DNA from: a virus
Virus record (IMG/VR): IMGVR_UViG_3300037470_000856
Coordinates: 77,030 to 141,029 of that record
Strand: one strand, 5' to 3'
Length of the DNA: 64,000 nucleotides
Shown here: one piece after another, positions 9,217 to 57,697 of the stretch
How the letters are laid out: every line of letters starts with the position of its first letter
How positions within the stretch are numbered: position 1 is the stretch's first letter
Position numbers and translations under genes: made by a program
Notes under the pieces: model-generated
Told to the model about the DNA's origin: nothing
Databases searched by the model: none
What the model saw: only the letters and a program-made list of their open reading frames with translations

Positions 9217-12200
9217 CTAGAACCGGGTCTGCTTTCGCAGCGAAAGGATTCGCCCAAGACGCACCAAGGTCTTGGCTTCTCCCGTTTGTGGTTTGCGACC
9301 GAGCACCTCGGCACAGCGCGCGAGGTACTTATCGAGGGACGGATGCCCGTCGGTAGACCCGACCCGGAGAGCGGTCCTGTAGAGATCCCTCGAAACTTGG
9401 AAGTCGTGGGTCTGCTTGAGCCGGGCGATCCCGTCGATCAACTCCACGTCGGACCGGGCGATGCAAAGCAGCGCCTCGGTCCCGGCGGCCAGCTTGGCCA
9501 TGGCCGCCTGGTGGTTGATGTTCTCGTTGGTGGAGGTCTCGAGTTCGGCGGGCGAGGGCTCGTCCTTGTCGCCCTCGTCGCCCTGCATCTTGTCGCGGAG
9601 CTTCTTCTTGATCTTGTCGAGGACGTACTTCTCGACCGCGTCCTCGAGATCCTTCATCGGGTCCGCGTCCTCGCCCCCGCCCGGGTCGCCTGGCATCCCG
9701 GGCATGCCGCCTCCGGCGTCGTCTCCGGCGTCGTCTCCGGGAGGAGCGGTGAGCTGCGCGAGGCGAGCGTGCGCGAGGCGGGCCTGGCGACGCTCCTCGG
9801 CGAGCTCGGCCGCGGTCTTGGATCCCTCGAAGCTGACGGTCATGTCGCGCGCGGCCTTGGCCATCTCGTCCTCGCTGGCCGTCCACTGGCGCGGGGGCTC
9901 CGAGAGGAGGCGCTGCATCTGGCTGCGTGTGTCGAGGTTGATACTGTCGGGCTGCAGGATGTTGCGCATCACGGCGCCCTGGAACGCCGGGACGTCGACC
10001 CAGGATGCCTCGATGAAGGTAACGCCACCCGTGGGGTCGAGCGTCTCGTGGCCGCACAACTCGGCGACCCGAAATTTGTTGCCAAGCTGGTCGTACTCGT
10101 ACTGGCCCTTGCCATACTTGACGTGCTCGCAGTTGTGAACGGCAAGGCCCTCGACCACATATGAATGATCGCCCTCGACCCCGAAGTTGTGGACCGGACC
10201 AGAGTAGGGCTCGCAGGAGACGCCCCGAACGCGGTAAATGAGCCAGTTACCGACGCGCTTGAACCCATCGGTCACGGCCGACATCGTGACACGGGCTGTC
10301 TCCCGGTCAGAGAACCTGACCTCATCACCGAACCCTTGAGGATCGGAGACCACAAGACCGAACGAGGGGAGCCACCCACGGTGGTCGCGTACGGTAACGG
10401 AACCGTCACCGTTCACCACTTGGTCGAGGGTCGCGCTGCGACCTCCAAAGGTGACCTTCTTGTACGAGTACAAGCCGCACCGCGCGGCTAAGATGTGCAT
10501 CTGGTTCAACAGGTTGAGTGATGTAGTGGAGCCAACGATACCGACGTCCGCCTGCGTTGCATCACCGCCGAGCCACCCGAACAGGACGTGCTTCTGCACC
10601 TCAGGACTCCATCGGAGAATTGAGGGATCAAGACGTTTTTCGTGCGAATACTCGCCGCAGTACCGGAAAAAGAACTCGGCGACCTGGGCATCCATGAAAC
10701 GGACATCCACGGACCCGCTGTCCTCTGTGCTGCCGGAATTCCGGTTCCGATGCACCCGGACCGACCTGTCTGCGCTCCCCACCCACTGCCGGTTGCAAAC
10801 CTTGCACTGGTAACAGTCATCGGCCCCTTTCTTGAACCGGACGTTGTACGCGTACTCCGAGGGAGCCCGGCACCCCGGGCACATGACGTCAGAGGAGACC
10901 GACCGGCTCGTGCTACGTCGATGGACCGGAGTCACGCTGTCGCGGGCGACCAAGGTGCGCCAGTTTTCCGACGAAACCCGTCGCTCGTCGCGGCCGAACT
11001 CCTCGTTCAGGAGCTTCTCCACCTCAGCCGCGAGAGTGTCATGCTCGTGGTGGCCGAATGTGAAACTGACCCCGACCCTCTCACTGTCCCGCTTGATGAA
11101 GGATCCCTCGGCCAGGAAATAGCCAATAAGCCGCGCCCTGTTGACGGTAGCGTCGTCTGTGTTCTCCGTCTCCTGCGGGATGGGGAAAGCGAGATAGTCC
11201 CCAGCCCTGAGGTCTCTAGCCGCGACGAATTCCAAGTCCACGTCGAACAGGCGTTTATAATCCCCCATCTCCACGACGTTCACGGCATAGGGATTCGGGT
11301 TTTGCAGCCGCGTGTTGTGGCCTGGGAGGAACCGGCGCCGGAACGCCTTCACCGAACCGCGCTCGTGCTCCACCGTACGCCGAAGCGGAGCTCCACAGCC
11401 GCACGCGCAGATCTGTGCGGGTCGGAGCGTCCAGTACGGATGGTTGGGGGTGGAGCGCAATCCAACTGGGACCCCGTCGACGTCGAGCGAGATGAGATGC
11501 CCCTCGTACGGACGGCGCATTGTCTCTGTGACGGCGCCCGTCAAACCTGTGTGGGTAACGACGGCATCTCCCTCGACAATCTCCTCGATCGGCACGTACC
11601 GTCCGTCCGCCAGGAGCACACGGGTGCCGGGAGGGAAACACATCTCGGTCTCGTCCGCAGCCACGTTCCCGCACTTCGTGCAGATCGTCTCCGTGACGCT
11701 GCAGCCCATGCTCATCGTGCCCATGCGGCCCGACTCGATGTCGCGGATCAGGCTCGCGTGGCGACGGCTCGTGGCGATGAGGATGTCGACGTAGACCGAG
11801 TCGCCGATGTCGCGGGCGGCGGCGTCGATGATGCGGCCCTTGGACTGGTCCTCGATCTGGACGTGCTCCACGAAGTTGTGGGCGCCGACGAAGGTGCGGT
11901 AGCTCTTGAGCAGCACCGGGCGGTCCCACGCGTCGTGGTTGTTGTTGATGTAGATGTCGCACTTCGGGAGGATGTGGTAGTTCGCCCACCGCCGATTCAC
12001 CCGACGTCCCATCTCGCTGACGTTGCCGAGTTTGACGTTCGACACCTCGGAGGTGTCCACCGACGCCACGATGGTCGCGTGCGTCAGGAGATACTTCTCC
12101 GGGGAGAACTGGTCCTGGAGGATCTCCGACGCCTGCGCCACGAGGTTCGGCGAGCTCGAGGCGGTGCGGACGCGGCCCCTGGCACGCTGCACGAAGTTCC

Positions 12201-49582: not shown

Positions 49583-49620
49583 CAGGGATTCTACCCACCC
49601 CCGAGGTCAGCTTCGTGAAA

Positions 49621-50163
49621 CTACGAGTCCACTCCGCGACGTCGTCGACGCTTCTTGGAAACGCGCTCCGCGAACTCTTCCCCGTAGTACCACGTCAATT
49701 CTTCGTCCTTCTTGATCGTCCGCGCTGCCCAGAAGTGGTAGTTCTCGTCCATCTCGAGATTGGGGTCGTCGAAGTGGTTGAGGAACCGGAACTCGTTGGT
49801 CCCGACGCGCCAGCCCGTCGGCTCGGCGGCGGGGTCCTCCTCGTCGTAGTTGTAGATGACGTAGCGCTCGTTACTCCGCGTCACGTCGCCATCGTCCACA
49901 CCCTCGTACGTTCCCACGTAGGTGCCCTTTCGGATGTACTGGCCCGCGAAGACGCCGCGCTCGTGGATGGGGGACGTGGCGACGTAGACGACGCACCGGG
50001 TCTTCTCGATCTCCTCTTGGAGAATCGACACTGCCTGCATGATGCAGGTCTCGCAGATGGTCGGGCCCTCCCGGAGCGTCCTCCCGTGGCGCCACAGGGT
50101 CGTATGGTTTCGCGAGGTCGACCGATCGCAGAACGAGCAGGCGGGCTTGGGCGCCTTGGCCAT
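49621..50163 (-). CDS. SET-domain protein with ClpX-type C4 zinc finger
   Basis: CSFC...ICETC; SPIHERGVFA...YEG...RFLNH..DPN...IKKDEELTWYYG. Confidence 0.85.
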   Translation of the reverse strand: MAKAPKPACSFCDRSTSRNHTTLWRHGRTLREGPTICETCIMQAVSILQEEIEKTRCVVYVATSPIHERGVFAGQYIRKGTYVGTYEGVDDGDVTRSNERYVIYNYDEEDPAAEPTGWRVGTNEFRFLNHFDDPNLEMDENYHFWAARTIKKDEELTWYYGEEFAERVSKKRRRRRGVDS

Positions 50164-50349
50164 GACCAGACACCTTACCGGGGTAGGGTGCATCGTGTCG
50201 CGAAGGAAACGCAGGGGGAGCGGGACGGCGTCACGGAAGCGTGACCGAGATCTTGTTGCCCGCTACGAGTGTCTCGGATGCGGTCGGAAGTGGGGCGAGA
50301 GTCTCGACGAGCTGCAACGGATGCGGGCCGACGGGAGTCTTCCCTCGAC

Positions 50350-50665
50350 CTACTCGGGAACGAACTGCTCCTGCAGACACCCTTGGAAACGTCTCCCCGA
50401 CGGCGCTGCTTTCGTGGCCGAGCCGGGTCCGTCGGGAACTTCGAGACCGCAAGCACAACACCTCGGCACGACAAGGTCATCGTCCATCACCCCGTGGCAC
50501 CCTTCCGCTCCGCATCGTCGAAAGTCGAAAGCCCAGTCGTCAGAATCGTCGGCCGTCGCCGGCCACACCTTCTTCGCGACTTCCCTCCCCTCCACACGGT
50601 CGAGTTGCAGGAGGTTCGTGAAGAACTGGGTGAAGAACTGGGCGAAGATCTCGATCTTGGTCATC
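50350..50665 (-). CDS. hypothetical protein
   Basis: MTKIEIFAQFF..., AAAGGA RBS; Cys-rich. Confidence 0.4.
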
Positions 50666-50677
50666 GTGGTCGTCCTT

Positions 50678-51112
50678 TCAGACCGCGTAGCCTTCTTCGG
50701 GTGCGTCGTCTCTGTCTCCCACGAGCCACTCCAGGACGTCCACAAGACCACCGTAGATGATGCGCACGCGCTCCTGCTGTGCCAACGCAGCTGCAGCGAG
50801 GCGATGGTGGCCATCGAGGACGACGGGGTACGGCAGGATGCGGCCGCCTTCGCACACATTGTCCACTTCGATCGGGTCCGGAGGGATGTCCTCGCGCATC
50901 GCGTCGAGGAAGAAACGGATGCGGCCGTAGTCGTAGCTGCCGAAACCGGCGGGACGCTTCCACGGGTCCACGTGCTTGCGTCGAACGGAGTGGGCAAGCA
51001 CCTTCTCGAGGCGGGGCCATTCCTCCGCCCGCCACCCAAGAACCGCGAAGGGGTCCACGTGCTTGAGGAGCCGGCCGGTGAGGGTCTCGTAGACGCCGTC
51101 GGACTCACTCAT
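50678..51112 (-). CDS. ParB/Srx N-terminal-domain-like protein
   Basis: PDPIEV...VVLDGHHRLAAA. Confidence 0.65.
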   Translation of the reverse strand: MSESDGVYETLTGRLLKHVDPFAVLGWRAEEWPRLEKVLAHSVRRKHVDPWKRPAGFGSYDYGRIRFFLDAMREDIPPDPIEVDNVCEGGRILPYPVVLDGHHRLAAAALAQQERVRIIYGGLVDVLEWLVGDRDDAPEEGYAV

Positions 51113-51282
51113 CGGGGAGGAACTCCACCCGGGCCGTAGGGCCATGCTTGACCAAGTTGTACTCGTCTTGGAAGTGCCCCTTCTCGTCCGCGAAGTCCAC
51201 GATCTCGAGGAGGAGCTTCTTGATGATCCCCTTGGCGTCCCAAGGAACCCCTGAGCGTGTTCGCGTTACACCAGGCCCGTTC

Positions 51283-51348
51283 TGCGAACAGAGGTGGTTT
51301 CGATCCACGCACGGCCTTCGTGGCCACCACTGACCTCAGCTTGCTCGC
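51283..51348 (-). ncRNA. small tRNA-like element (degenerate)
   Basis: terminal stem GCGAGCA/TGTTCGC, hairpin GGCC-ACGAA-GGCC, T-like arm GTGG-ATCGAAA-CCAC; no proper D arm. Confidence 0.35.
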
Positions 51349-51352
51349 ATAG

Positions 51353-51436
51353 TGCTCGAAAGGGGAGTCGAACCCCCACGGTGTTTCCACCACACGGATC
51401 TGAACCGTGCGCGTCTGCCAATTCCGCCATCCGAGC
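51353..51436 (-). tRNA. tRNA-Leu(CAG), CCA not encoded
   Basis: anticodon arm CACGG-TTCAGAT-CCGTG, long variable arm, GGTTCGACTCC. Confidence 0.92.
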
Positions 51437-51579
51437 AAACTCTGGGTGTCCCCAGAGAATCAAGAACACCCAGGATTTTCACCCGCCTCGGTCTGTAGAG
51501 GACCAGCTGCCCACAGGGCGCCCTGCGGAGTCGCCCCTACGGTCTGCGAACTTCGGGAGCAGTTGCCAGTTGTGTTGCA

Positions 51580-51664
51580 TGGTGCCGACGGAGGGAATCG
51601 AACCCCCAAGGATTGCTCCACACGATCCTTAGTCGTGCGCGTTTGCCAGTTTCGCCACGTCGGC
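51580..51664 (-). tRNA. tRNA-Leu(AAG)
   Basis: anticodon arm CACGA-CTAAGGA-TCGTG, variable arm, ends ACCA. Confidence 0.9.
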
Positions 51665-51670
51665 AAGTTC

Positions 51671-51815
51671 TGAACAAGAGGAGTGATGGGGATGAGATTG
51701 CTACGCGCTCTACCAACTGAGCTACTTCCCCGTGAAGTGGGGAAGGCAGGACTCGAACCTACGACCTCGGGTTCCGTATACCGATGCTTATGATCTCCAT
51801 CGGTTCTCTCGTTCA
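51671..51815 (-). ncRNA. YrlA-type Y RNA (permuted tRNA-like module)
   Basis: T arm GTAGG-TTCGAGT-CCTGC precedes the closed acceptor hairpin CTTCCCC-ACTTCAC-GGGGAAG and then the D arm TAGCTC-AGTTGGTA-GAGC; outer stem TGAACGAGAG/CTCTTGTTCA. Confidence 0.75.
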
Positions 51816-51818
51816 TAG

Positions 51819-51893
51819 TCGGGATGACAGGACGCGAACCTGCGACCCCCTGTCCCCCAGACAGGTGCGCTAGCCAGACTACGCCACATCCCG
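51819..51893 (-). tRNA. tRNA-Pro(GGG), CCA not encoded
   Basis: CCTGT-CTGGGGG-ACAGG; acceptor CGGGATG/CATCCCG. Confidence 0.9.
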
Positions 51894-52126
51894 ATGGTTT
51901 TTCTTCGCGGATCTCTTGGCCGCCTTCGCCTCTTGCTTCTCCTTTCGTCTCCGGTTTCTCAGATGGGGGTTGGCTTCTTCTGCGGCCGCGCAGCGGGCTC
52001 GCTGCTCGACCAGGAACGCTTCGACTTCCTCTGGGTGGGACCCTTCTCGAGCCCACTCAACGAGGCGGATAAAGACGCCTCCGCGTCGTCCAGGTGATGA
52101 TGTCTGCCATGTCGTTCCTCGCTTCT

Positions 52127-52377
52127 TGGGGAGCATGACCGGAATCGAACCGGCGTAGAGTCAGAGTCCAATTTTGGGGAAACGCGTTTCACCTACGATA
52201 ACAGCTTGGTCGCAGGCCGACCCGAGCCTCAAACCCTGGACAGCTCTTTCACTCCGTACTTCCTTTCGGCATCCCCCTTGGGACCTGTCCGTTTTCGGGA
52301 GCTTCCAATCTGACTCTCCTTGTGGGAACCCTGGTCCGTTTTTACAGGGCGCCCTTCCATCGCGGGCTGCATGCTCC
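52127..52377 (-). ncRNA. 251-nt tRNA-framed structured RNA of unknown class
   Basis: 8-bp acceptor GGAGCATG/CATGCTCC + CCA, D-like arm, T arm GCCGG-TTCGATT-CCGGT, large insert closed by AGAGTCAGA/TCTGACTCT. Confidence 0.6.
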
Positions 52378-52419
52378 ATAGGGTTGTGGATGATGGTGTC
52401 GTCTCCTCGTGGTGGTCTT

Positions 52420-52497
52420 TGGTCGGGGCGACAGGACTCGAACCTGCGACCTCGTGCTCCCGAAGCACGCGCTCTAGCCAGACTGAGCTACGCCCCG
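52420..52497 (-). tRNA. tRNA-Pro(CGG)
   Basis: CGTGC-TTCGGGA-GCACG; ends ACCA. Confidence 0.95.
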
Positions 52498-52636
52498 ATG
52501 TACTTGCTGTCGTTTGCTGCTCGCACTCTTTTGTTCGCGATGGCGGCCGCGTTGCTGAGGAGACCAGCCCCTCGGCGGTACGCGGAGACCCAAGGGGTTC
52601 TCCAGGATCTCTCCCATGCCTTCATCTTCTTCACCG

Positions 52637-52712
52637 TGGCACCCAAGGCGGGAATCGAACCCGCGACCTCTCGGTTCGCAACCGAACGCTCTTTCCCCTG
52701 AGCTACCTGGGT
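52637..52712 (-). tRNA. tRNA-Arg(GCG)
   Basis: TTCGG-TTGCGAA-CCGAG; ends GCCA. Confidence 0.88.
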
Positions 52713-52731
52713 AAGTGGTTGTGCTGGATCA

Positions 52732-52807
52732 TGGCGTTCCCGGCAGGACTCGAACCTGCGACCCCCCGCTTCGGAGGCGAGTACTCTTCCAACTGAGCTA
52801 CGAGAAC
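52732..52807 (-). tRNA. tRNA-Arg(CCG)
   Basis: CTCGC-CTCCGAA-GCGGG; ends GCCA. Confidence 0.92.
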
Positions 52808-52808
52808 A

Positions 52809-52870
52809 TGGCACCCCCGGAAGGATTCGAACCTCCGACCCCACCGTCCGTAGCGGTGTGCTCTTCCGCT
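52809..52870 (-). pseudogene. 5'-truncated tRNA-Arg(ACG)
   Basis: intact anticodon arm CACCG-CTACGGA-CGGTG, T arm and 3' acceptor + CCA, but no 5' acceptor strand or 5' D stem. Confidence 0.75.
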
Positions 52871-52909
52871 TGACACACTTCTCCCGTGATCGTGAAACTT
52901 CGACCTTCT

Positions 52910-52984
52910 TGGTCGGGGTGAGAGGAATCGAACCTCCGACCTGATGGACCCAAACCACCCGCTCTGCCCCTGAGCTACACCCCG
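52910..52984 (-). tRNA. tRNA-Pro(TGG)
   Basis: GGTGG-TTTGGGT-CCATC; ends ACCA. Confidence 0.93.
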
Positions 52985-53284
52985 TCTTCGCGGTTTCTTG
53001 GGCTTAAACGACCGAGGGCGGTGCCCCCTCTGGTCCCGCCCTCGCCCGATGTCCGCCTATGTGCCCCTGCTAAGGGGATAGGACATCGGGCCGTCGCGGG
53101 AGTCGACGCCGCAGGCACACGGGGAGCAGGCCCAGACCACGAAGTGGTTGGGTGAGGCTCGACCCGGTCTTGGTGCTGACGGCGTTCATTGGAAACTCCA
53201 GTAGGAGGACTACGACCCCTCAGACGAGAAGTCAAGAGGACGCTTCACTTTTTCTTCTATCCGGGTTCCTTGGAGGAGGCCGGA

Positions 53285-53941
53285 ATTCCGTCTCGAAATC
53301 TCAGCGCTCGGCGAGTGGCGTCGCTCTGGCTCCAAGCCCAAGCTCGAGGGCTTTCCTCAGACGCGGTGGTCTACACGTTCGTGGACCCGGAGTCTCTTGC
53401 TTCGATCCGACAAAGGGGGCTCCTCTCCGGCGAATTGATTGCGAAGTCTCCGTCGCTCCTCGCGCTTGCGCGTCCCAATGCGAAAGACCGAGCGACTTGG
53501 TTGAAGACCTACCATGCTCTGCACGAGGACCCCAAGAGCAACGTCATTTTCAAAGGCCCAAGCGTCTTCTTTTCGAAGCCAGACTTCTCGAGCATGAGCC
53601 CAGGGCACCCCATCCGTAAGCGGCACCTGCTCCCCGTCCGCGTGCGCCTCGGAGAGTTGCTTCGCGACCACCCTGAGATCCAAGTCTTGGGAGTGGAGTT
53701 GAAGCCCTACCGCAAGGACATGACCGACGAGGAATTCGCACGCCGCGAGCATATCCTAACGCCGACCGAGATTGCAGGGTTCATCCGACAGAGTCCCGCG
53801 TCGCTCTGGCGCCACCACAACCGACGGGACACGACACACTACGCCAGCGACGTCCCGCATGGGATCGTCCTCACTCCTCGGATCGCTCCCCGCTACCTGA
53901 TCTTCCCAGCAGAGCACGGACACGAGTCAGAACTTCCGTAG
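53285..53941 (+). CDS. hypothetical protein, possible ADP-ribosyltransferase-like fold, with RVASLWL motif (start uncertain, possibly ATT)
   Basis: VYTFVDPESLASIRQRGLLS resembles the DarT/Tpt1-type (Y)HxT..NL.SI...GL.S opening; the clearest plus-strand gene in the window. Confidence 0.55.
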   Translation: MPSRNLSARRVASLWLQAQARGLSSDAVVYTFVDPESLASIRQRGLLSGELIAKSPSLLALARPNAKDRATWLKTYHALHEDPKSNVIFKGPSVFFSKPDFSSMSPGHPIRKRHLLPVRVRLGELLRDHPEIQVLGVELKPYRKDMTDEEFARREHILTPTEIAGFIRQSPASLWRHHNRRDTTHYASDVPHGIVLTPRIAPRYLIFPAEHGHESELP

Positions 53942-54260
53942 CACTCCCTTCCGCGTCTACGACGTGGGCGTCCAAATGCGCCGCGACACGTCGGAAGCGC
54001 TCACGGTAGTCCTGAAGAGACTCAAGCGTGTGGAACTCCTCCGTCAGGTCCGCACCGCGCTCTGCAAGGCGTCACTGGCTGGTCTCCGGCGCGCAGTCCA
54101 GGACCACGTAGACCTCTCCTGGTACTGGTGTCAGCGGGACGCTGGAGTCGGTAGCCTTCGTGGGAAGACCACGATCAGACACCTCGATGCCGAGTTCACG
54201 CAACGCGGTGACAAGTGTGGTCTTCCCGGTGCCGTCGTTCCCATCGACGACTACTTTTTG
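53871..54260 (-). pseudogene. nucleoside-monophosphate kinase-like P-loop gene with in-frame TGA
   Basis: VVVDGNDGTGKTT...DR...VVLDCAPETSQ*RLAERG...VVDAEGS; stop at 54072-54074 interrupts an otherwise continuous frame. Confidence 0.55.
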
Positions 54261-54661
54261 AGCATCTTGCACAGGAATTTCCACTTCTCAAGCACTTCCT
54301 CGTGGGAGCCCCCAGCTCGCCACACGTCCTTGTCGAACTCGCCCATGTCGAAGTGGCGGTAGCGTCCGCAGTCTTGGCTGATCTCTCCGAACACCGTGTG
54401 CCCGTCGGCGGAGATGAACAGGCACAGATCGTAGATCACGACGTCGCGCGTGGAGAGGAACTCTTGCAGCGCATCGAACGTTCGGATGACAGTGGCTCGA
54501 GCCGCTTGGGTGTCGATCCACCAGTCGGCGATGTCTTCGGGCATCACCTCGTCCGCCAAGCGCTTGCCCGTCACCGGGTGTTCAAAGGGATTGCGCCAGT
54601 CGAAGCGCACGATCGTGTGCGGGTAGGCATCCATGTCCTGGAACGAGGCTGCTTCGAACAT
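54251..54661 (-). pseudogene. SAICAR synthetase (PurC)-like C-terminal fragment
   Basis: IVRFDWRNP...GEISQDCGRYR...FDKDVWR resembles PurC EISPD..R.W...DKD.FR; N-terminal half missing. Confidence 0.55.
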
Positions 54662-54751
54662 CGAACCCCCACATCCAGTGGACGAACTACGATGAGTTCT
54701 CGCCGCGCCTCTTCGGAGACGCGGGTCGAACTAGTGGAGAGCACTGACGGC

Positions 54752-55243
54752 TCAGAGGCGTCCACGCTCCCGGAGGTACCTCGACCAGACGGTGTACTTG
54801 CGGGTCTCTCTGTCCCTGAACCCCCACGTCCCCACGTACTTGCCCGTGACGAACAGGGTCCACGTCGAGGCCCCGTGTAGCCGGACGACGCGGTGGTAGT
54901 CGTCGCGCCGGATGACGTTCACGCGTCCCGGGCCGAGCTTCCTGACGCCCACGCCGTCGCCGACGAACCGCTCCTCGTCATAGCCCCCCACGAGCAGCAG
55001 CGAGTAGGACGTGCTCCAGGGGTGGTTGTGCAGGTCCCGGTCCTCGTCGGGCTGCTTGAACTCGTGCAGGTACACAACGAAGGGGAGCCACGCGAGACGT
55101 GCCTTGGTCCCCTCAGGCCAGTGCCCCAGGACGCCGTCGTCCCCAAAGACGTAGTGGCGCATGAGGTACTCGCCGCCTTCGCAGTAGATGACGCGCAGCG
55201 GACAGCGTCGAGCGCACCAGCGGACAAACTTGTCGAGGACCAC
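54752..55243 (-). CDS. cupin-fold hypothetical protein
   Basis: YLHEF..PD.DRDLHNHPW...GGYDEE...YHRV...WTLFVTG...WGF. Confidence 0.7.
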   Translation of the reverse strand: MVLDKFVRWCARRCPLRVIYCEGGEYLMRHYVFGDDGVLGHWPEGTKARLAWLPFVVYLHEFKQPDEDRDLHNHPWSTSYSLLLVGGYDEERFVGDGVGVRKLGPGRVNVIRRDDYHRVVRLHGASTWTLFVTGKYVGTWGFRDRETRKYTVWSRYLRERGRL

Positions 55244-55248
55244 GGCGA

Positions 55249-56418
55249 CTACTCCACGGCGCTCTCGAGCACGTCGAGGAGGAGCGCGTCGATCTTGGCC
55301 ACCTCGGGAGACTTCCTGAGGGTGCTCGTCTCGTACGCGCTGCCGATCTCGGCCTGGAGATCCTCGGCCTGATCCATCAACTCGTCGTAGCTCCACTGGC
55401 CGTCCCGAATCGCCATGAGCTCCTCGGCGTCGGGTCGACGCACGCGGATGGTGTGGTCGCGCAGGATCTCGAGCCCCGTGCGCAGCAGCCGGATGAGGTG
55501 CGACGCGTGCTTCGTATCGTATCCGTACTTGGCCTCGAGCTCGGCGCGTACCTCGTTTCGCTCCGTCTTCCACATCGTGTACTGCTGCCAGTGCTTGAGC
55601 GCGGACCGGTAGCGGCGCTCCTGCCTGATCGCGTAGAGCACGTCCTGCGACAGGCCGATGCTCGCTCCCCCGAGTTCGTACACCCTCTCGTCGAGCAGGT
55701 CGTCCCTGCAGAACAGAAGGGTCGCGTGGAAATCCCGGACGCGGTTCATTAACGAGTCGAGCACCGGACCCTCGAGCAGATCCTCGAAACCGTCGGTCAG
55801 CTTCCAGCGCACGGTGATCTTCTTGACCGCCTCGTCAATCTGGTTGCGCACGTCCGCCGACAGCACCGACTCCTCGGGGAGGTCGTAGTCGCCCCGGCTC
55901 GGAGGAGCCTTCGGCGGGTTGAGGAGCCACTCGCGATGTCCCTTGATGCGCTTGAGTTGCGACATCGCGTAGCCCGTGTAGCTATGGCGACACTTCTTGG
56001 AGAGGAAGAGGTCGCGCCCCTCCACGATCCGGTCCCACGCGTCCGCCCACGAGAACAGCACGTCGCGCTCGTCGAGAAACAGGAGCTCGAGCACGTTCGG
56101 GTTGTTGTTCGCGGCGAGGGCGACGAGTTTCGTCAAGGAAAAAATGCACAGGTCGATCTCGCCATCGCGGGTGTACGAGGCCCCGGCCGTGGGATGGTTG
56201 GCGAGTTTGGCAATCGCGACCTTGGACGTCTCGCCCCACGATCCCGCCTGCTTGGCGGCCGTGTACTGCTCAAAGTTGCGGAAGAAGCTGTCCCGTACGT
56301 CACGCGGGGGGATGGCCGCTCCTCGGACGTCCACGTCCGACGTCGGCCGGGCCATGCCGTAGGCGTGGGATCCCGTGACGGCCAGAAAGATGGTGTGCTT
56401 GTCTACGTCGAAGTGCAT
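55249..56418 (-). CDS. Pol-beta superfamily nucleotidyltransferase (YcgL/RlaP-like)
   Basis: GSHAYG..PTSDVDVRG, NNPNVLELLF, GYAMSQ, YDTKHASHLIRLL, IRDG. Confidence 0.85.
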   Translation of the reverse strand: MHFDVDKHTIFLAVTGSHAYGMARPTSDVDVRGAAIPPRDVRDSFFRNFEQYTAAKQAGSWGETSKVAIAKLANHPTAGASYTRDGEIDLCIFSLTKLVALAANNNPNVLELLFLDERDVLFSWADAWDRIVEGRDLFLSKKCRHSYTGYAMSQLKRIKGHREWLLNPPKAPPSRGDYDLPEESVLSADVRNQIDEAVKKITVRWKLTDGFEDLLEGPVLDSLMNRVRDFHATLLFCRDDLLDERVYELGGASIGLSQDVLYAIRQERRYRSALKHWQQYTMWKTERNEVRAELEAKYGYDTKHASHLIRLLRTGLEILRDHTIRVRRPDAEELMAIRDGQWSYDELMDQAEDLQAEIGSAYETSTLRKSPEVAKIDALLLDVLESAVE

Positions 56419-56455
56419 GACGGTCTCTCCCGTGGGAGCCGACTGTTGTACCCCA

Positions 56456-57697
56456 TCAGTGGACATGGTCCAGGCCTCCACCACATGTGGGACAACTCTC
56501 GAAGCCGCCCAGGACGGTCTTGGTGCGCTCATTGAGTGTGTCGAACTCGGAGGACATCGTCTCGATCTGGTGATCCAAGGTGGCGACGGCGTCGCGGCTC
56601 TCGACGTGCCGCCTCTTGAGCCGACGGGCGTTATCGAGGGCCTTGCAAAACTTTCCGATGCAGTCGGCCTTCTGGGGATCGAGAGAGATGGCCCCGAGGG
56701 CCTCCTGCGTCTTCTCCGCGCGGGCGAACTCGGCCCGAGCCTCCTCGTATCGGAGAGCGAGCCCGACGGTCAGGCCGATGGCGTTGCGAAACTGTTGCAC
56801 GTAGGTCACGCGCTTGGTGGAGGGCAGCCTGTCTTCGACCCTCTCAAGGCCCGCCAGAGCCTCCACGTCGCGCCGTGCGGACCCCAGGCGCTCGCCGATG
56901 TGCAAGACCGTGGCAACGACGCGGGAGACGTCTTGGGCCTCCTTGACGCGCTCTGAGGTGGGCACCCTGGAGGCCGCGTCGTCGAGACCGTCGAGGGCCG
57001 CCACGTCGCGTCGAGCCCGCACCACGCGTTCCCCGAGCCTCACGAGGTTGGCGTTGGCCTTGGCGATCTTCTCCGCCTTCTTGTGGCGCTTCTCAAGCGC
57101 TTCGACGGCGGCGGCGGCACCGTCGAGGCCCGCGAACCCCTCGAGCCGCTCGACGAGCGTCTTGGCGTCCTTGCGCCGCACCTTGAGGTTAGCCCTGGAG
57201 CTGCGGCGGTCCGACTCGCAGTCCTTGAGGGCCCGGCTCAGCAAGTTCACGCGCTCGACGTTGGCGACCGCCTCCGCGACGGTCGAGCCCGACTCGTGGA
57301 GGAGGAAACTGACGCCGGTGATCTGCGGAGCGATCTGCGGCCACAGCTCCGAGTTGCTCGCGCGGACGGGCTCGACTCCGAAGATCTGCGCCTCAGAAGG
57401 AACACCGTGTCCGACCTTCGGGATTTCCCGGCCATCGACGATGTACATGTTGACGCTGCGGCCCTTCTTCCACGTCAGGGTTCGGCCGGTCTCCGTGTCC
57501 TCGATGTCGACCGTGCAGTGCTTGGCCCCGTGGCGGACGAAGTCAGAACCGCGGGCGTTGGTCAGCGCCCCCCGGATCGCGCGGAAAAATGCCGACTTGC
57601 CCGCGTTGTTCGTGCCCGTGACGACGGTCAGCCCGTCGATTTCGACGGTGGCGTCCTCGATCGACTGAAAATTCCGGACGCGGACCTTGAGTGCCAT
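56456..57697 (-). CDS. Rad50/SbcC N-terminal half (Walker A, coiled coil, Zn hook)
   Basis: VRNFQSI...GTNNAGKS...; ends ESCPTCGG; no Walker B. Confidence 0.85.
   Translation of the reverse strand: MALKVRVRNFQSIEDATVEIDGLTVVTGTNNAGKSAFFRAIRGALTNARGSDFVRHGAKHCTVDIEDTETGRTLTWKKGRSVNMYIVDGREIPKVGHGVPSEAQIFGVEPVRASNSELWPQIAPQITGVSFLLHESGSTVAEAVANVERVNLLSRALKDCESDRRSSRANLKVRRKDAKTLVERLEGFAGLDGAAAAVEALEKRHKKAEKIAKANANLVRLGERVVRARRDVAALDGLDDAASRVPTSERVKEAQDVSRVVATVLHIGERLGSARRDVEALAGLERVEDRLPSTKRVTYVQQFRNAIGLTVGLALRYEEARAEFARAEKTQEALGAISLDPQKADCIGKFCKALDNARRLKRRHVESRDAVATLDHQIETMSSEFDTLNERTKTVLGGFESCPTCGGGLDHVH

What the first reader, a model, noticed from the sequence alone, without database searches (positions are those of the whole stretch)
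52127..52377. 251-nt RNA built on a tRNA frame with a large structured insert
Seen (minus strand): an 8-bp acceptor GGAGCATG/CATGCTCC followed directly by CCA; D-like GCCC..GGGC; a CCCTG..CAGGG arm with a non-canonical 11-nt loop. The variable position holds a 9-bp helix AGAGTCAGA/TCTGACTCT enclosing about 140 nt of further stems (GGACAG/CTGTCC, TCCC/GGGA, CC-GAAA-GG, GGTCG/CGACC), followed by a canonical T arm. It lacks the G3-U70 pair and tag ORF of tmRNA and the UCA anticodon of tRNA-Sec, and the insert is not in the anticodon loop as tRNA group I introns are. An 8-bp stem plus CCA mimics the G-1:C73 identity of tRNA-His. Inference: a possibly undescribed ncRNA class that uses tRNA processing as a scaffold, or acts as a decoy.
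Basis: partly seen in the sequence, partly recalled or inferred. Interest (0 to 1): 0.85.

Follow-up and report, generated by a model that had tools for sequence, protein, structure and literature searches.

The report
Divergent tRNA-shaped phage RNA
This 251-base gene in a huge phage's tRNA cluster makes an RNA with the ends and elbow of a tRNA but no anticodon and a 160-base extra arm; it is an unusual, stripped-down member of a widespread RNA family, absent from Rfam and from the papers I could search, that in other phages sits next to genes for the RNA-surveillance protein Ro60.

Summary
Window 52127-52377 (minus strand) folds as an 8-bp acceptor plus CCA, a D arm, a hairpin with an 11-nt loop in the anticodon position, a 9-bp helix in the variable-arm position enclosing about 143 nt, and a T arm. 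ARAGORN and Rfam 15 give no family for it.

It is not a singleton. About 40 relatives with the same architecture occur in phage tRNA arrays and in Myxococcota and Steroidobacteraceae genomes. Their helices covary strongly: 94% of cells paired, 27 of 41 pairs with double changes. This scan has already met the family on other DNA; I re-tested those earlier notes here.

In phage records the family is linked to Ro60/TROVE genes: 12 of 21 family-bearing records against 1 of 35 random records, always within 14 kb.

Our copy is the outlier. It keeps the tRNA frame, the AAAACGGA loop, the long helix and the GAARCGCGUUUCC hairpin. It lacks the GGUUGCRGANGCACCG core found in all 30 other aligned members. 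No Ro60 gene lies in its 141-kb record or in a 92%-complete relative, which has an empty site at this position.

The tRNA-His-like G-1:C73 pair is private to this copy. tmRNA, intron-bearing tRNA and transposon readings are rejected. Function is unproven; a Y-RNA-like adaptor is most likely.

The parts
52127..52377 (-). Whole RNA gene (251 nt, including G-1 and the encoded CCA)
   Evidence: Sequence; MFE cloverleaf frame; matches its own model R1 end to end (by construction, gives coordinates only); family homologues.
52370..52377 (-). Acceptor 5' strand GGAGCAUG (G-1 plus positions 1-7)
   Evidence: Pairs with 52130-52137. The 7-bp acceptor covaries at 7 of 7 pairs in the family. The eighth pair is not conserved.
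52351..52367 (-). D arm GCCC-GCGAUGGAA-GGGC
   Evidence: The D stem has double changes at 3 of 4 pairs in the family. Compensatory change against the G029 copy, GCGC/GCGC.
52328..52350 (-). Hairpin in the anticodon position: 5-6 bp stem, 11-nt loop UAAAAACGGAC holding the family motif AAAACG(R)A
   Evidence: The stem covaries at 4 of 4 pairs while the loop motif stays constant in nearly all members.
52318..52327 (-). Linker UCCCACAAGG, possibly a small CC/GG hairpin
   Evidence: MFE. Relatives have CCGUAAAAGG or CCUCGAAAGAGG at the same place. Weak.
52309..52317 (-). 5' strand of the 9-bp helix H1 at the variable-arm position
   Evidence: Pairs with 52157-52165. The equivalent helix covaries at 6 of 6 pairs in the family.
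52242..52308 (-). Insert domain 1, with the AGUACGGAGUG segment shared with L207- and L214-type members
   Evidence: Pairwise alignments. The internal pairing is not tested.
52196..52241 (-). Closing helix GUCCA, then GGG, then the region where other members carry the invariant GGUUGCRGANGCACCG core; here it is diverged (GGGUUUGAGGCUCGGGUCGGCCUGCGACC...)
   Evidence: The core motif is absent here but present in 30 of 30 other aligned members. The best local match to the core is not significant (p = 0.22).
52176..52195 (-). Family hairpin 2c, variant UAGGUGAAACGCGUUUCCCC
   Evidence: Local alignment score 24, above all 2000 shuffles (maximum 20). nhmmer with the family profile hits 52135-52195, E 5.5e-4.
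52157..52175 (-). A-rich internal loop, 3' strand of the closing helix (UGGAC) and 3' strand of H1 (UCUGACUCU)
   Evidence: Same layout as L217: closing helix / AAAC / CCC.
52138..52154 (-). T arm GCCGG-UUCGAUU-CCGGU
   Evidence: 100% of cells paired in the family.
52127..52137 (-). Acceptor 3' strand CAUGCUC, C73 and the encoded CCA
   Evidence: The neighbouring tRNA-Pro also encodes CCA.
52378..52419 (-). 42-nt spacer between tRNA-Pro(CGG) and the RNA. It resembles the spacer after the RNA, so the two form imperfect direct repeats around the inserted unit.
   Evidence: Comparison with the empty site in G004.

Best explanation
The stretch is a real gene for a non-decoding, tRNA-framed RNA. 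It is a divergent member of an uncatalogued family whose members keep a tRNA acceptor stem, D arm and T arm. In the anticodon position they carry a hairpin with an enlarged AAAACG loop. In the variable-arm position they carry a long helix holding a conserved multi-hairpin domain.

Inferred biogenesis:
- It is transcribed with the neighbouring tRNAs.
- RNase P cuts it out at the 5' end. Here the G-1:C73 pair would leave an 8-bp stem, as in tRNA-His.
- It is trimmed to its encoded CCA.

Inferred role:
- Canonical members act as Y-RNA-like adaptors for a Ro60-type ring protein.
- A CGAA-containing stem-bulge-stem in the big arm would be the Ro60 site.
- The tRNA-shaped part would be the second, effector-facing module. 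This is in effect a YrlA with an open acceptor.

Our copy has lost the CGAA-containing core. It keeps the frame, the AAAACGGA loop and the GAARCGCGUUUCC hairpin. In this phage lineage it therefore probably works without a phage Ro60. It may use a host Ro60 or a different partner, through the parts it retains.
For: Shown:
- Frame and helices are present.
- The gene lies inside a same-strand tRNA array, with no promoter-like or terminator-like site on the gene strand (minus) between the genes; the only site found is a terminator-like one on the plus strand.
- Model R1, built from our sequence, scores family members up to 52.6 bits against at most 30.6 bits for any tRNA.
- The G029 copy, from the same phage clade, has the same architecture at a similar place in its array.
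- The family has 37 or more distinct members. 94% of cells are paired and 27 of 41 pairs show double changes; slid controls give about 47%.
- Our copy shares the loop motif and hairpin 2c.
- TROVE genes occur in 12 of 21 family-bearing viral records (6 of 8 near-complete ones) against 1 of 35 random viral records (0 of 13 near-complete). The RNA lies 1-14 kb from the TROVE gene in all of them and in G029.
- A sub-threshold YrlA element lies two genes downstream in our array.

From the literature:
- CGAA in a stem-bulge-stem is the Ro60 contact in Y RNAs (PMC4201824, PMC12135203).
- M. smegmatis YrlA is cut by RNase P and receives CCA (PMC4201824).
Against: - Our copy lacks the invariant core that holds the CGAA, and the family model R2 does not align it full length.
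- There is no TROVE gene in the 141-kb record (31% complete) or in the 92%-complete relative G004, which also lacks the RNA.
- G006 and G007 have TROVE genes but no family member in their arrays.
- Two complete family-bearing phages have no TROVE gene.
- In bacterial genomes the RNA and TROVE genes are not adjacent.
- The TROVE control was random phage records, not phages matched for tRNA arrays.
- No RNA-level data exist. No binding was tested.
Confidence: 0.55

Rival explanations
1. Histidine-accepting tRNA mimic or decoy. The G-1:C73 pair, 8-bp stem and CCA make it a HisRS substrate, or a bait for enzymes that attack or process tRNAs. The big arm serves only as stabilising cargo.
For: G-1:C73 plus CCA are present. 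The best tRNA-like match of our model is an ordinary tRNA-His of relative G004 with a similar acceptor, GGUGCGUG..CACGCACC-CCA. G-1:C73 as the main bacterial HisRS determinant is established knowledge, cited from memory.
Against: The -1:73 pair and C73 are not conserved in the family: A73 or G73 in most, and pairing at -1:73 in 11 of 21, against 37% expected by chance. There is no GUG anticodon. The decoy target is unknown.
Confidence: 0.15
2. A decaying relic: a family member that lost its partner-binding core after the lineage lost Ro60, and is now without function.
For: It is the only one of 31 aligned members without the core. There is no TROVE gene in G000 or G004. The gene is absent from the syntenic site of G004. 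No relative of this variant was found in viral or metagenome contigs.
Against: All scaffold helices are perfect Watson-Crick, including a 9-bp H1 and an 8-bp acceptor. The two other family motifs are intact. Identical copies persist in three other sediment samples.
Confidence: 0.17
3. A reduced or alternative tmRNA, whose big arm is an mRNA-like domain.
For: The topology resembles tmRNA, with a long helix leaving the tRNA-like domain. The related phage G006 has a true tmRNA in its array, and G029 lacks it at that spot. R1 weakly hits the 3' half of the G006 tmRNA (11.6 bits).
Against: There is no G3:U70. ARAGORN and Rfam tmRNA models are negative. The only plausible in-frame stop (UGA after ..SRV) is not conserved in G029 or other members. 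The most conserved segments are hairpins, not a reading frame.
Confidence: 0.02
4. An intron-containing tRNA (self-splicing insert), or a tRNA gene disrupted by a small transposon whose terminal inverted repeats make the 9-bp helix.
For: Phage tRNA arrays do hold intron-bearing tRNAs: L004 16517-16800 carries an Azoarcus-like group I intron. The 9-bp helix looks like terminal inverted repeats.
Against: The Rfam group I model finds the L004 control at E 7e-8 but nothing here at E <= 10. The insert is not in the anticodon loop. Removing it would still leave an 11-nt loop without an anticodon. There is no second copy of the insert in the 141-kb record and no target-site duplication at the helix. 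The helix covaries in the family, as an RNA stem does.
Confidence: 0.03

Closest known systems
YrlA-type bacterial and phage Y RNAs (Rfam RF02553; Chen et al. 2014, PMC4201824; phage phiLo Yrl1/Yrl2, PMC12135203)
   Same: Both are tRNA mimics with D-like and T-like arms. Both are linked to Ro60/TROVE genes in phages. Canonical family members have a CGAA-containing stem-bulge-stem. YrlA-like elements occur in the same arrays as family members (L188, L200 and our window). M. smegmatis YrlA is cut by RNase P and receives CCA.
   Different: - Topology is permuted. In YrlA the 5' and 3' ends form the Ro60-binding stem and the acceptor is closed by a loop. Here the ends form an open 7-8 bp acceptor with CCA, and the conserved arm leaves from the variable-arm position.
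- There is an extra AAAACG hairpin.
- There is no Rfam YrlA hit.
- Members are larger (150-270 nt).
- Our copy lacks the core CGAA context and has no Ro60 gene nearby.
tmRNA
   Same: A tRNA-like domain made by the two ends, with a large structured domain between them. It is encoded in phage tRNA arrays of the same clade.
   Different: There is no alanine identity, no conserved tag frame, and D and anticodon-position hairpins are present. ARAGORN and Rfam are negative.
Small stable tRNA-like RNAs of phage tRNA clusters (T4 species 1/2 RNAs rnaC and rnaD; T5 RNA1 and RNA2). Cited from memory and from earlier notes of this scan; not tested here.
   Same: Non-decoding RNAs encoded among phage tRNA genes. 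They are presumed to be released by tRNA-processing enzymes, and their function is unknown.
   Different: No sequence relation was examined. Those RNAs replace the anticodon domain, whereas this family keeps a hairpin there and adds a conserved arm at the variable position.
tRNA-His and tRNA-Sec
   Same: An 8-bp acceptor with G-1:C73 and CCA, as in tRNA-His. An 8/5 acceptor/T geometry and a long extra arm, as in bacterial tRNA-Sec.
   Different: There is no 7-nt anticodon loop and no GUG or UCA anticodon. The D stem has 4 bp, not 6. The extra arm is 160 nt.

Membership tests
Uncatalogued Ro60-linked tRNA-shaped RNA family (defined here by models R1 and R2) | tRNA frame: 7-bp acceptor, 4-bp D arm with GG loop, 5-bp T arm with UUCGA loop | tested here: met
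   these helices covary in the family.
Uncatalogued Ro60-linked tRNA-shaped RNA family (defined here by models R1 and R2) | Hairpin in the anticodon position with an enlarged (9-13 nt) loop holding AAAACG(R)A | tested here: met
   The loop is UAAAAACGGAC. The motif is present in nearly all members, on different stems.
Uncatalogued Ro60-linked tRNA-shaped RNA family (defined here by models R1 and R2) | Long helix at the variable-arm position enclosing the conserved domain | tested here: met
   9 bp, positions 61-69 with 213-221. The family helix covaries at 6 of 6 pairs.
Uncatalogued Ro60-linked tRNA-shaped RNA family (defined here by models R1 and R2) | Invariant core GGUUGCRGANGCACCG(A/G)A | tested here: not met
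   Absent here and present in 30 of 30 others. The best local match has p = 0.22. R2 gives no full-length alignment.
Uncatalogued Ro60-linked tRNA-shaped RNA family (defined here by models R1 and R2) | Hairpin UAGGGAAGCGCGUUUCC just before the 3' strand of the closing helix | tested here: met
   The variant UAGGUGAAACGCGUUUCC scores 24, above all 2000 shuffles. nhmmer E 5.5e-4.
Uncatalogued Ro60-linked tRNA-shaped RNA family (defined here by models R1 and R2) | TROVE/Ro60 gene in the same phage, within about 14 kb | tested here: inconclusive
   None in the 141-kb record, but the record is only about 31% complete. The 92%-complete relative G004 has none.
YrlA (Rfam RF02553) | Score against the Rfam covariance model | tested here: not met
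   No hit at E <= 10 on 52050-52450. The separate element at 51702-51770 scores 37.3 bits, below the gathering score of 69.
YrlA (Rfam RF02553) | 5' and 3' ends form the Ro60-binding stem; the acceptor-like stem is closed by a loop | tested here: not met
   The ends form an open acceptor with CCA.
YrlA (Rfam RF02553) | GNCGAAN0-1G motif (PMC4201824) | tested here: inconclusive
   GCCGAAAG occurs at RNA positions 108-115. It reads as a CC-GAAA-GG tetraloop hairpin, and a motif this short is expected by chance.
tmRNA | G3:U70 alanine identity, resume codon with a conserved tag frame and stop, detection by ARAGORN or Rfam | tested here: not met
   The candidate stop is not conserved in homologues.
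tRNA-His | G-1:C73 | tested here: met
tRNA-His | 7-nt anticodon loop with GUG | tested here: not met
   The loop is 11 nt and has no GUG. ARAGORN is negative.
tRNA with group I intron | Group I core (Rfam RF00028), inserted in the anticodon loop | tested here: not met
   No hit at E <= 10, whereas the positive control in L004 gives E 6.7e-8. The insert is at the variable position.

The most novel reading that the evidence does not exclude
The family is a second, topologically permuted class of Y RNA. It is an open-acceptor, CCA-ended tRNA body, released by the tRNA-processing machinery, and it presents a Ro60-binding arm from the variable position. Our copy would be a natural 'core-less' derivative. 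It shows which parts (tRNA body, AAAACG loop, GAARCGCGUUUCC hairpin) carry a Ro60-independent activity, and its private G-1:C73 pair may let it be histidylated.
Probability: 0.3. Interest if true: 0.75.

Novelty: new variant of a known kind. Interest (0 to 1): 0.6.

Why it matters
Y RNAs and other tRNA mimics are among the least understood bacterial and phage non-coding RNAs.

- A conserved family of at least 40 members is absent from Rfam. It sits in phage tRNA arrays, close to Ro60 genes. This gives a new, testable partner RNA for phage Ro60 and a new way in which phages use the tRNA-processing pathway to make non-tRNA products.
- This copy is useful as a natural deletion variant. It keeps the scaffold and two conserved motifs but lacks the presumed Ro60 site, in a lineage with no detectable Ro60. 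It can therefore separate Ro60-dependent from Ro60-independent functions.
- For annotation, these genes are missed by ARAGORN, by Rfam and, in my hands, by a prefiltered covariance search.

Tried and rejected
- ARAGORN with lowered thresholds and intron mode gave only implausible calls.
- BLAST of the element against 50,697 phage records matched only T-arm fragments.
- Exact 22-mer of the T arm plus acceptor in viral contigs: no match.
- Pattern built on the D loop plus AC loop: 75 matches, all chance.
- Pattern GGAAGSGCG..AAAAACGRA found only G029.
- Two metagenome scans for variants like ours: none.
- The genome search with model R1 on 48 related phage records reported nothing. This was a false negative of its first-look filter, because cmsearch on the fetched G029 array finds the homologue. 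I do not use that blank.
- The neighbouring protein at 50350-51108 has no relatives in viral contigs.
- Sequencing runs: no RNA holder is listed. Three other sediment runs hold identical DNA fragments without variation, so they give no microdiversity and no joints.
- An HMM of the family insert alone does not find our insert significantly (E 0.9).
- The apparent match of our GGAUGCCGAAAGG to the family core is not significant (p = 0.22).
- A third covariance model including the long forms was not built, because the fitted alignment exceeded 400 columns.
- No complex prediction was attempted, since the tool takes no RNA.
- The alternative nested fold of the invariant core (RNAalifold) and the three-hairpin fold could not be told apart, because those columns do not vary.

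Full report
**What is there.** Read on the minus strand, window 52377-52127 starts with GGAGCAUG and ends with CAUGCUCC followed by CCA. Between them lie:
- a D arm (GCCC, 9-nt loop with GG, GGGC);
- a 5-6 bp hairpin closing an 11-nt loop UAAAAACGGAC;
- a short linker;
- a perfect 9-bp helix (AGAGUCAGA/UCUGACUCU) enclosing 143 nt;
- a canonical T arm.

An unconstrained fold gives exactly this frame, although its energy z-score is only -1.5. The gene sits in a same-strand array: Pro(UGG), Arg(CCG), Arg(GCG), Pro(CGG), this RNA, Pro(GGG), a permuted tRNA-like element, Leu(AAG), Leu(CAG). ARAGORN, Rfam at gathering scores and Rfam at E <= 10 give no family for it. As a control for the Rfam blank, a group I intron inside a tRNA of a related phage (L004 16517-16800) is found at E 7e-8 in the same mode.

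**Where it comes from.** The window is the last 64 kb of a 141-kb IMG/VR virus record estimated 31% complete, GC about 64%, from sediment. Its major head protein has 572 relatives in IMG/VR, including a 619-kb, 92%-complete genome, G004. This places it in a clade of huge phages.

Close relatives L002 and L003 carry a thymidylate synthase gene where our 5.6-kb array region lies. G004 has the same array segment but an empty site. There, tRNA-Pro(CGG) and its spacer run directly into the sequence that follows our RNA. In our phage, the spacer before the RNA and the spacer after it resemble each other. The RNA plus one spacer is therefore a gained or lost unit, in the style of tRNA-gene turnover.

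**Homologues.** A covariance model built from our sequence alone (R1) found a full-length relative in the tRNA array of clade member G029 (225 nt, E 4e-9). That relative folds on its own into the same architecture (z = -3.1).

Two motifs shared with G029 were turned into patterns. The second, TAGG.GAARCGCG.TTTCC, retrieved 20 viral loci, of which about 17 are true relatives. A pattern on the then-visible core found the same viral set plus five more. It also found 22 bacterial species genomes, mostly Myxococcota (Sandaracinaceae, Polyangiaceae) and Steroidobacteraceae. About half of the bacterial copies I checked (5 of 11) lie inside arrays of 7-27 tRNA genes.

Members are 150-270 nt long. Rfam has no match for canonical members either.

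**Structure of the family.** On 37 distinct members aligned to a model of the short forms (R2):
- 94% of cells form standard pairs.
- 27 of 41 pairs show changes on both sides.
- Sliding the partners by 1-3 columns drops pairing to about 47% and the covariation score from 0.50 to about 0.1.

The acceptor (7 of 7 pairs), D arm, anticodon-position hairpin (4 of 4), variable-arm helix (6 of 6), one inner hairpin and the T arm all covary. Two inner segments, GGUUGC.GA.GCACC and GGGAAGCGCGUUUCC, never vary, so their fold is open. RNAalifold prefers a nested fold for them that resembles a stem-bulge-stem around CCGAA. The alignment was fitted to the model, which favours the structure, but the margins are large.

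**How our copy fits.** It shares with the family:
- the frame;
- the AAAACGGA loop on a different stem;
- the long helix;
- a closing helix followed by GGG...CCC with an A-rich internal loop, laid out as in the Sandaracinus copy;
- the AGUACGG.GUG segment of the long forms;
- the GAARCGCGUUUCC hairpin, with an alignment score above all 2000 shuffles.

R1 scores the Sandaracinus copy at 52.6 bits, against at most 30.6 bits for any ordinary tRNA.

Our copy is also the only one of 31 aligned members without the GGUUGCRGANGCACCG core. R2 cannot align it end to end. A sequence-only profile of the insert does not find it. No other copy of this variant exists in the viral or metagenome collections. 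I therefore file it as a divergent member in which one defining feature is not met.

**Link to Ro60.** Earlier notes of this scan, made on other genomes, had read the family as Ro60-linked. I tested that here.
- The Pfam TROVE model hits 12 of 21 family-bearing viral records and 6 of the 8 that are at least 90% complete.
- It hits 1 of 35 viral records that had entered the session as chance pattern matches, and 0 of 13 complete ones.
- Using locus coordinates, the RNA lies 1-14 kb from the TROVE gene in all 12, and 5 kb away in G029.

The literature gives CGAA in a stem-bulge-stem as the Ro60 contact (PMC4201824, PMC12135203). Most canonical members (24 of the 28 whose core I read) have CACCGAA in such a place. 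These results speak for a Y-RNA-like role.

The caveats are these:
- The control was not matched for tRNA arrays.
- G006 and G007 have TROVE genes but no family RNA in their arrays.
- Two complete family-bearing phages lack TROVE.
- In bacteria the two genes are not neighbours.

**Our phage.** No TROVE gene is found in its 141 kb, either with the Pfam model or with the clade's own Ro60-like proteins. None is found in the near-complete relative G004. A sub-threshold YrlA-like element lies at 51702-51770 (37.3 bits), and an RlaP-type nucleotidyltransferase of RNA-repair contexts lies 2.9 kb upstream. The lineage thus carries Ro60-style RNAs without a visible phage Ro60. The copy studied here has lost the presumed Ro60 site while keeping perfect scaffold helices.

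**Rejected readings.**
- tmRNA: there is no G3:U70, no detector hit, and the only candidate stop is not conserved.
- Intron-bearing tRNA: there is no ribozyme hit despite a working control, the insertion site is wrong, and no anticodon would remain.
- Transposon insertion: there is no second copy, no target duplication, and the helix covaries.
- Histidine identity as a family property: the -1:73 pair is present in 11 of 21 members against 37% expected, and most have A73 or G73. It remains a private and testable feature of this copy.

**Verdict.** This is a real, conserved kind of RNA that I could not find described. The scan has already met it on other DNA. Here it appears as an atypical variant without the core. 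Function is inferred, not shown.

Noticed in passing
window 51702-51770 (-), inside 51671-51815: A permuted tRNA-like element between tRNA-Pro(GGG) and tRNA-Leu(AAG) gives a sub-threshold Rfam YrlA hit (37.3 bits, gathering score 69, local E 6e-7). The same element is conserved in relative G004 (L167 about 9782-9865).
   Followed up: partly
window 52057-52110 (-): A 17-codon micro-ORF, MADIITWTTRRRLYPPR, lies behind a GAGGAA site directly after the RNA. The G004 copy differs by five synonymous codon changes and one replacement (P to D) and stops at the same place, which suggests a translated micro-peptide. The whole 230-nt gap is 73% identical between the two phages.
   Followed up: partly
L004 16517-16800 (+) (IMGVR_UViG_3300033233_000001): A tRNA gene interrupted in the anticodon loop by an Azoarcus-like group I intron of about 210 nt (GUAGAGACUAGA core). 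ARAGORN and Rfam at gathering score miss it; Rfam in E-value mode gives 36.4 bits.
   Followed up: partly
L162 7687-8092 (-) (G006): A huge phage of the same clade encodes a standard tmRNA (tag ANDSSYDQLAQAA) inside its 45-gene tRNA array. G029 lacks it at the syntenic spot.
   Followed up: no
G006:189699-189848, G029:114472-114627, G007:85603-85734: Ro60/TROVE-like ORFs of 578-594 aa lie inside the tRNA arrays of three huge phages of this clade. The Pfam match is weak (21-25 bits).
   Followed up: partly
window 55249-56532 (-): A 427-aa protein with an RlaP domain (Pol-beta-type nucleotidyltransferase of RNA-repair contexts, E 9e-19). It is conserved in L002, L003 and L004, next to the site where tRNA arrays are inserted.
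   Followed up: no
window 49600-55250 versus L002 11124-12656: The 5.6-kb block holding the tRNA array and several small ORFs is replaced in close relatives by a thymidylate synthase gene. This is a hot spot of gene exchange between RlaP and the Mre11-like nuclease.
   Followed up: partly
L209, L213, L218 (MAG contigs of Steroidobacteraceae and one 'Clostridia' bin): Arrays of 20-27 tRNA genes that include a family member sit on contigs binned as bacterial genomes. They are probably prophages, other mobile elements or mis-binned phage contigs. L213 also has a tRNA called SeC(UCA) by ARAGORN.
   Followed up: no
method: the genome search with a single-sequence covariance model missed a homologue that plain cmsearch finds at E 4e-9 in the same record. 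Blanks from that route should not be read as absence.
   Followed up: yes
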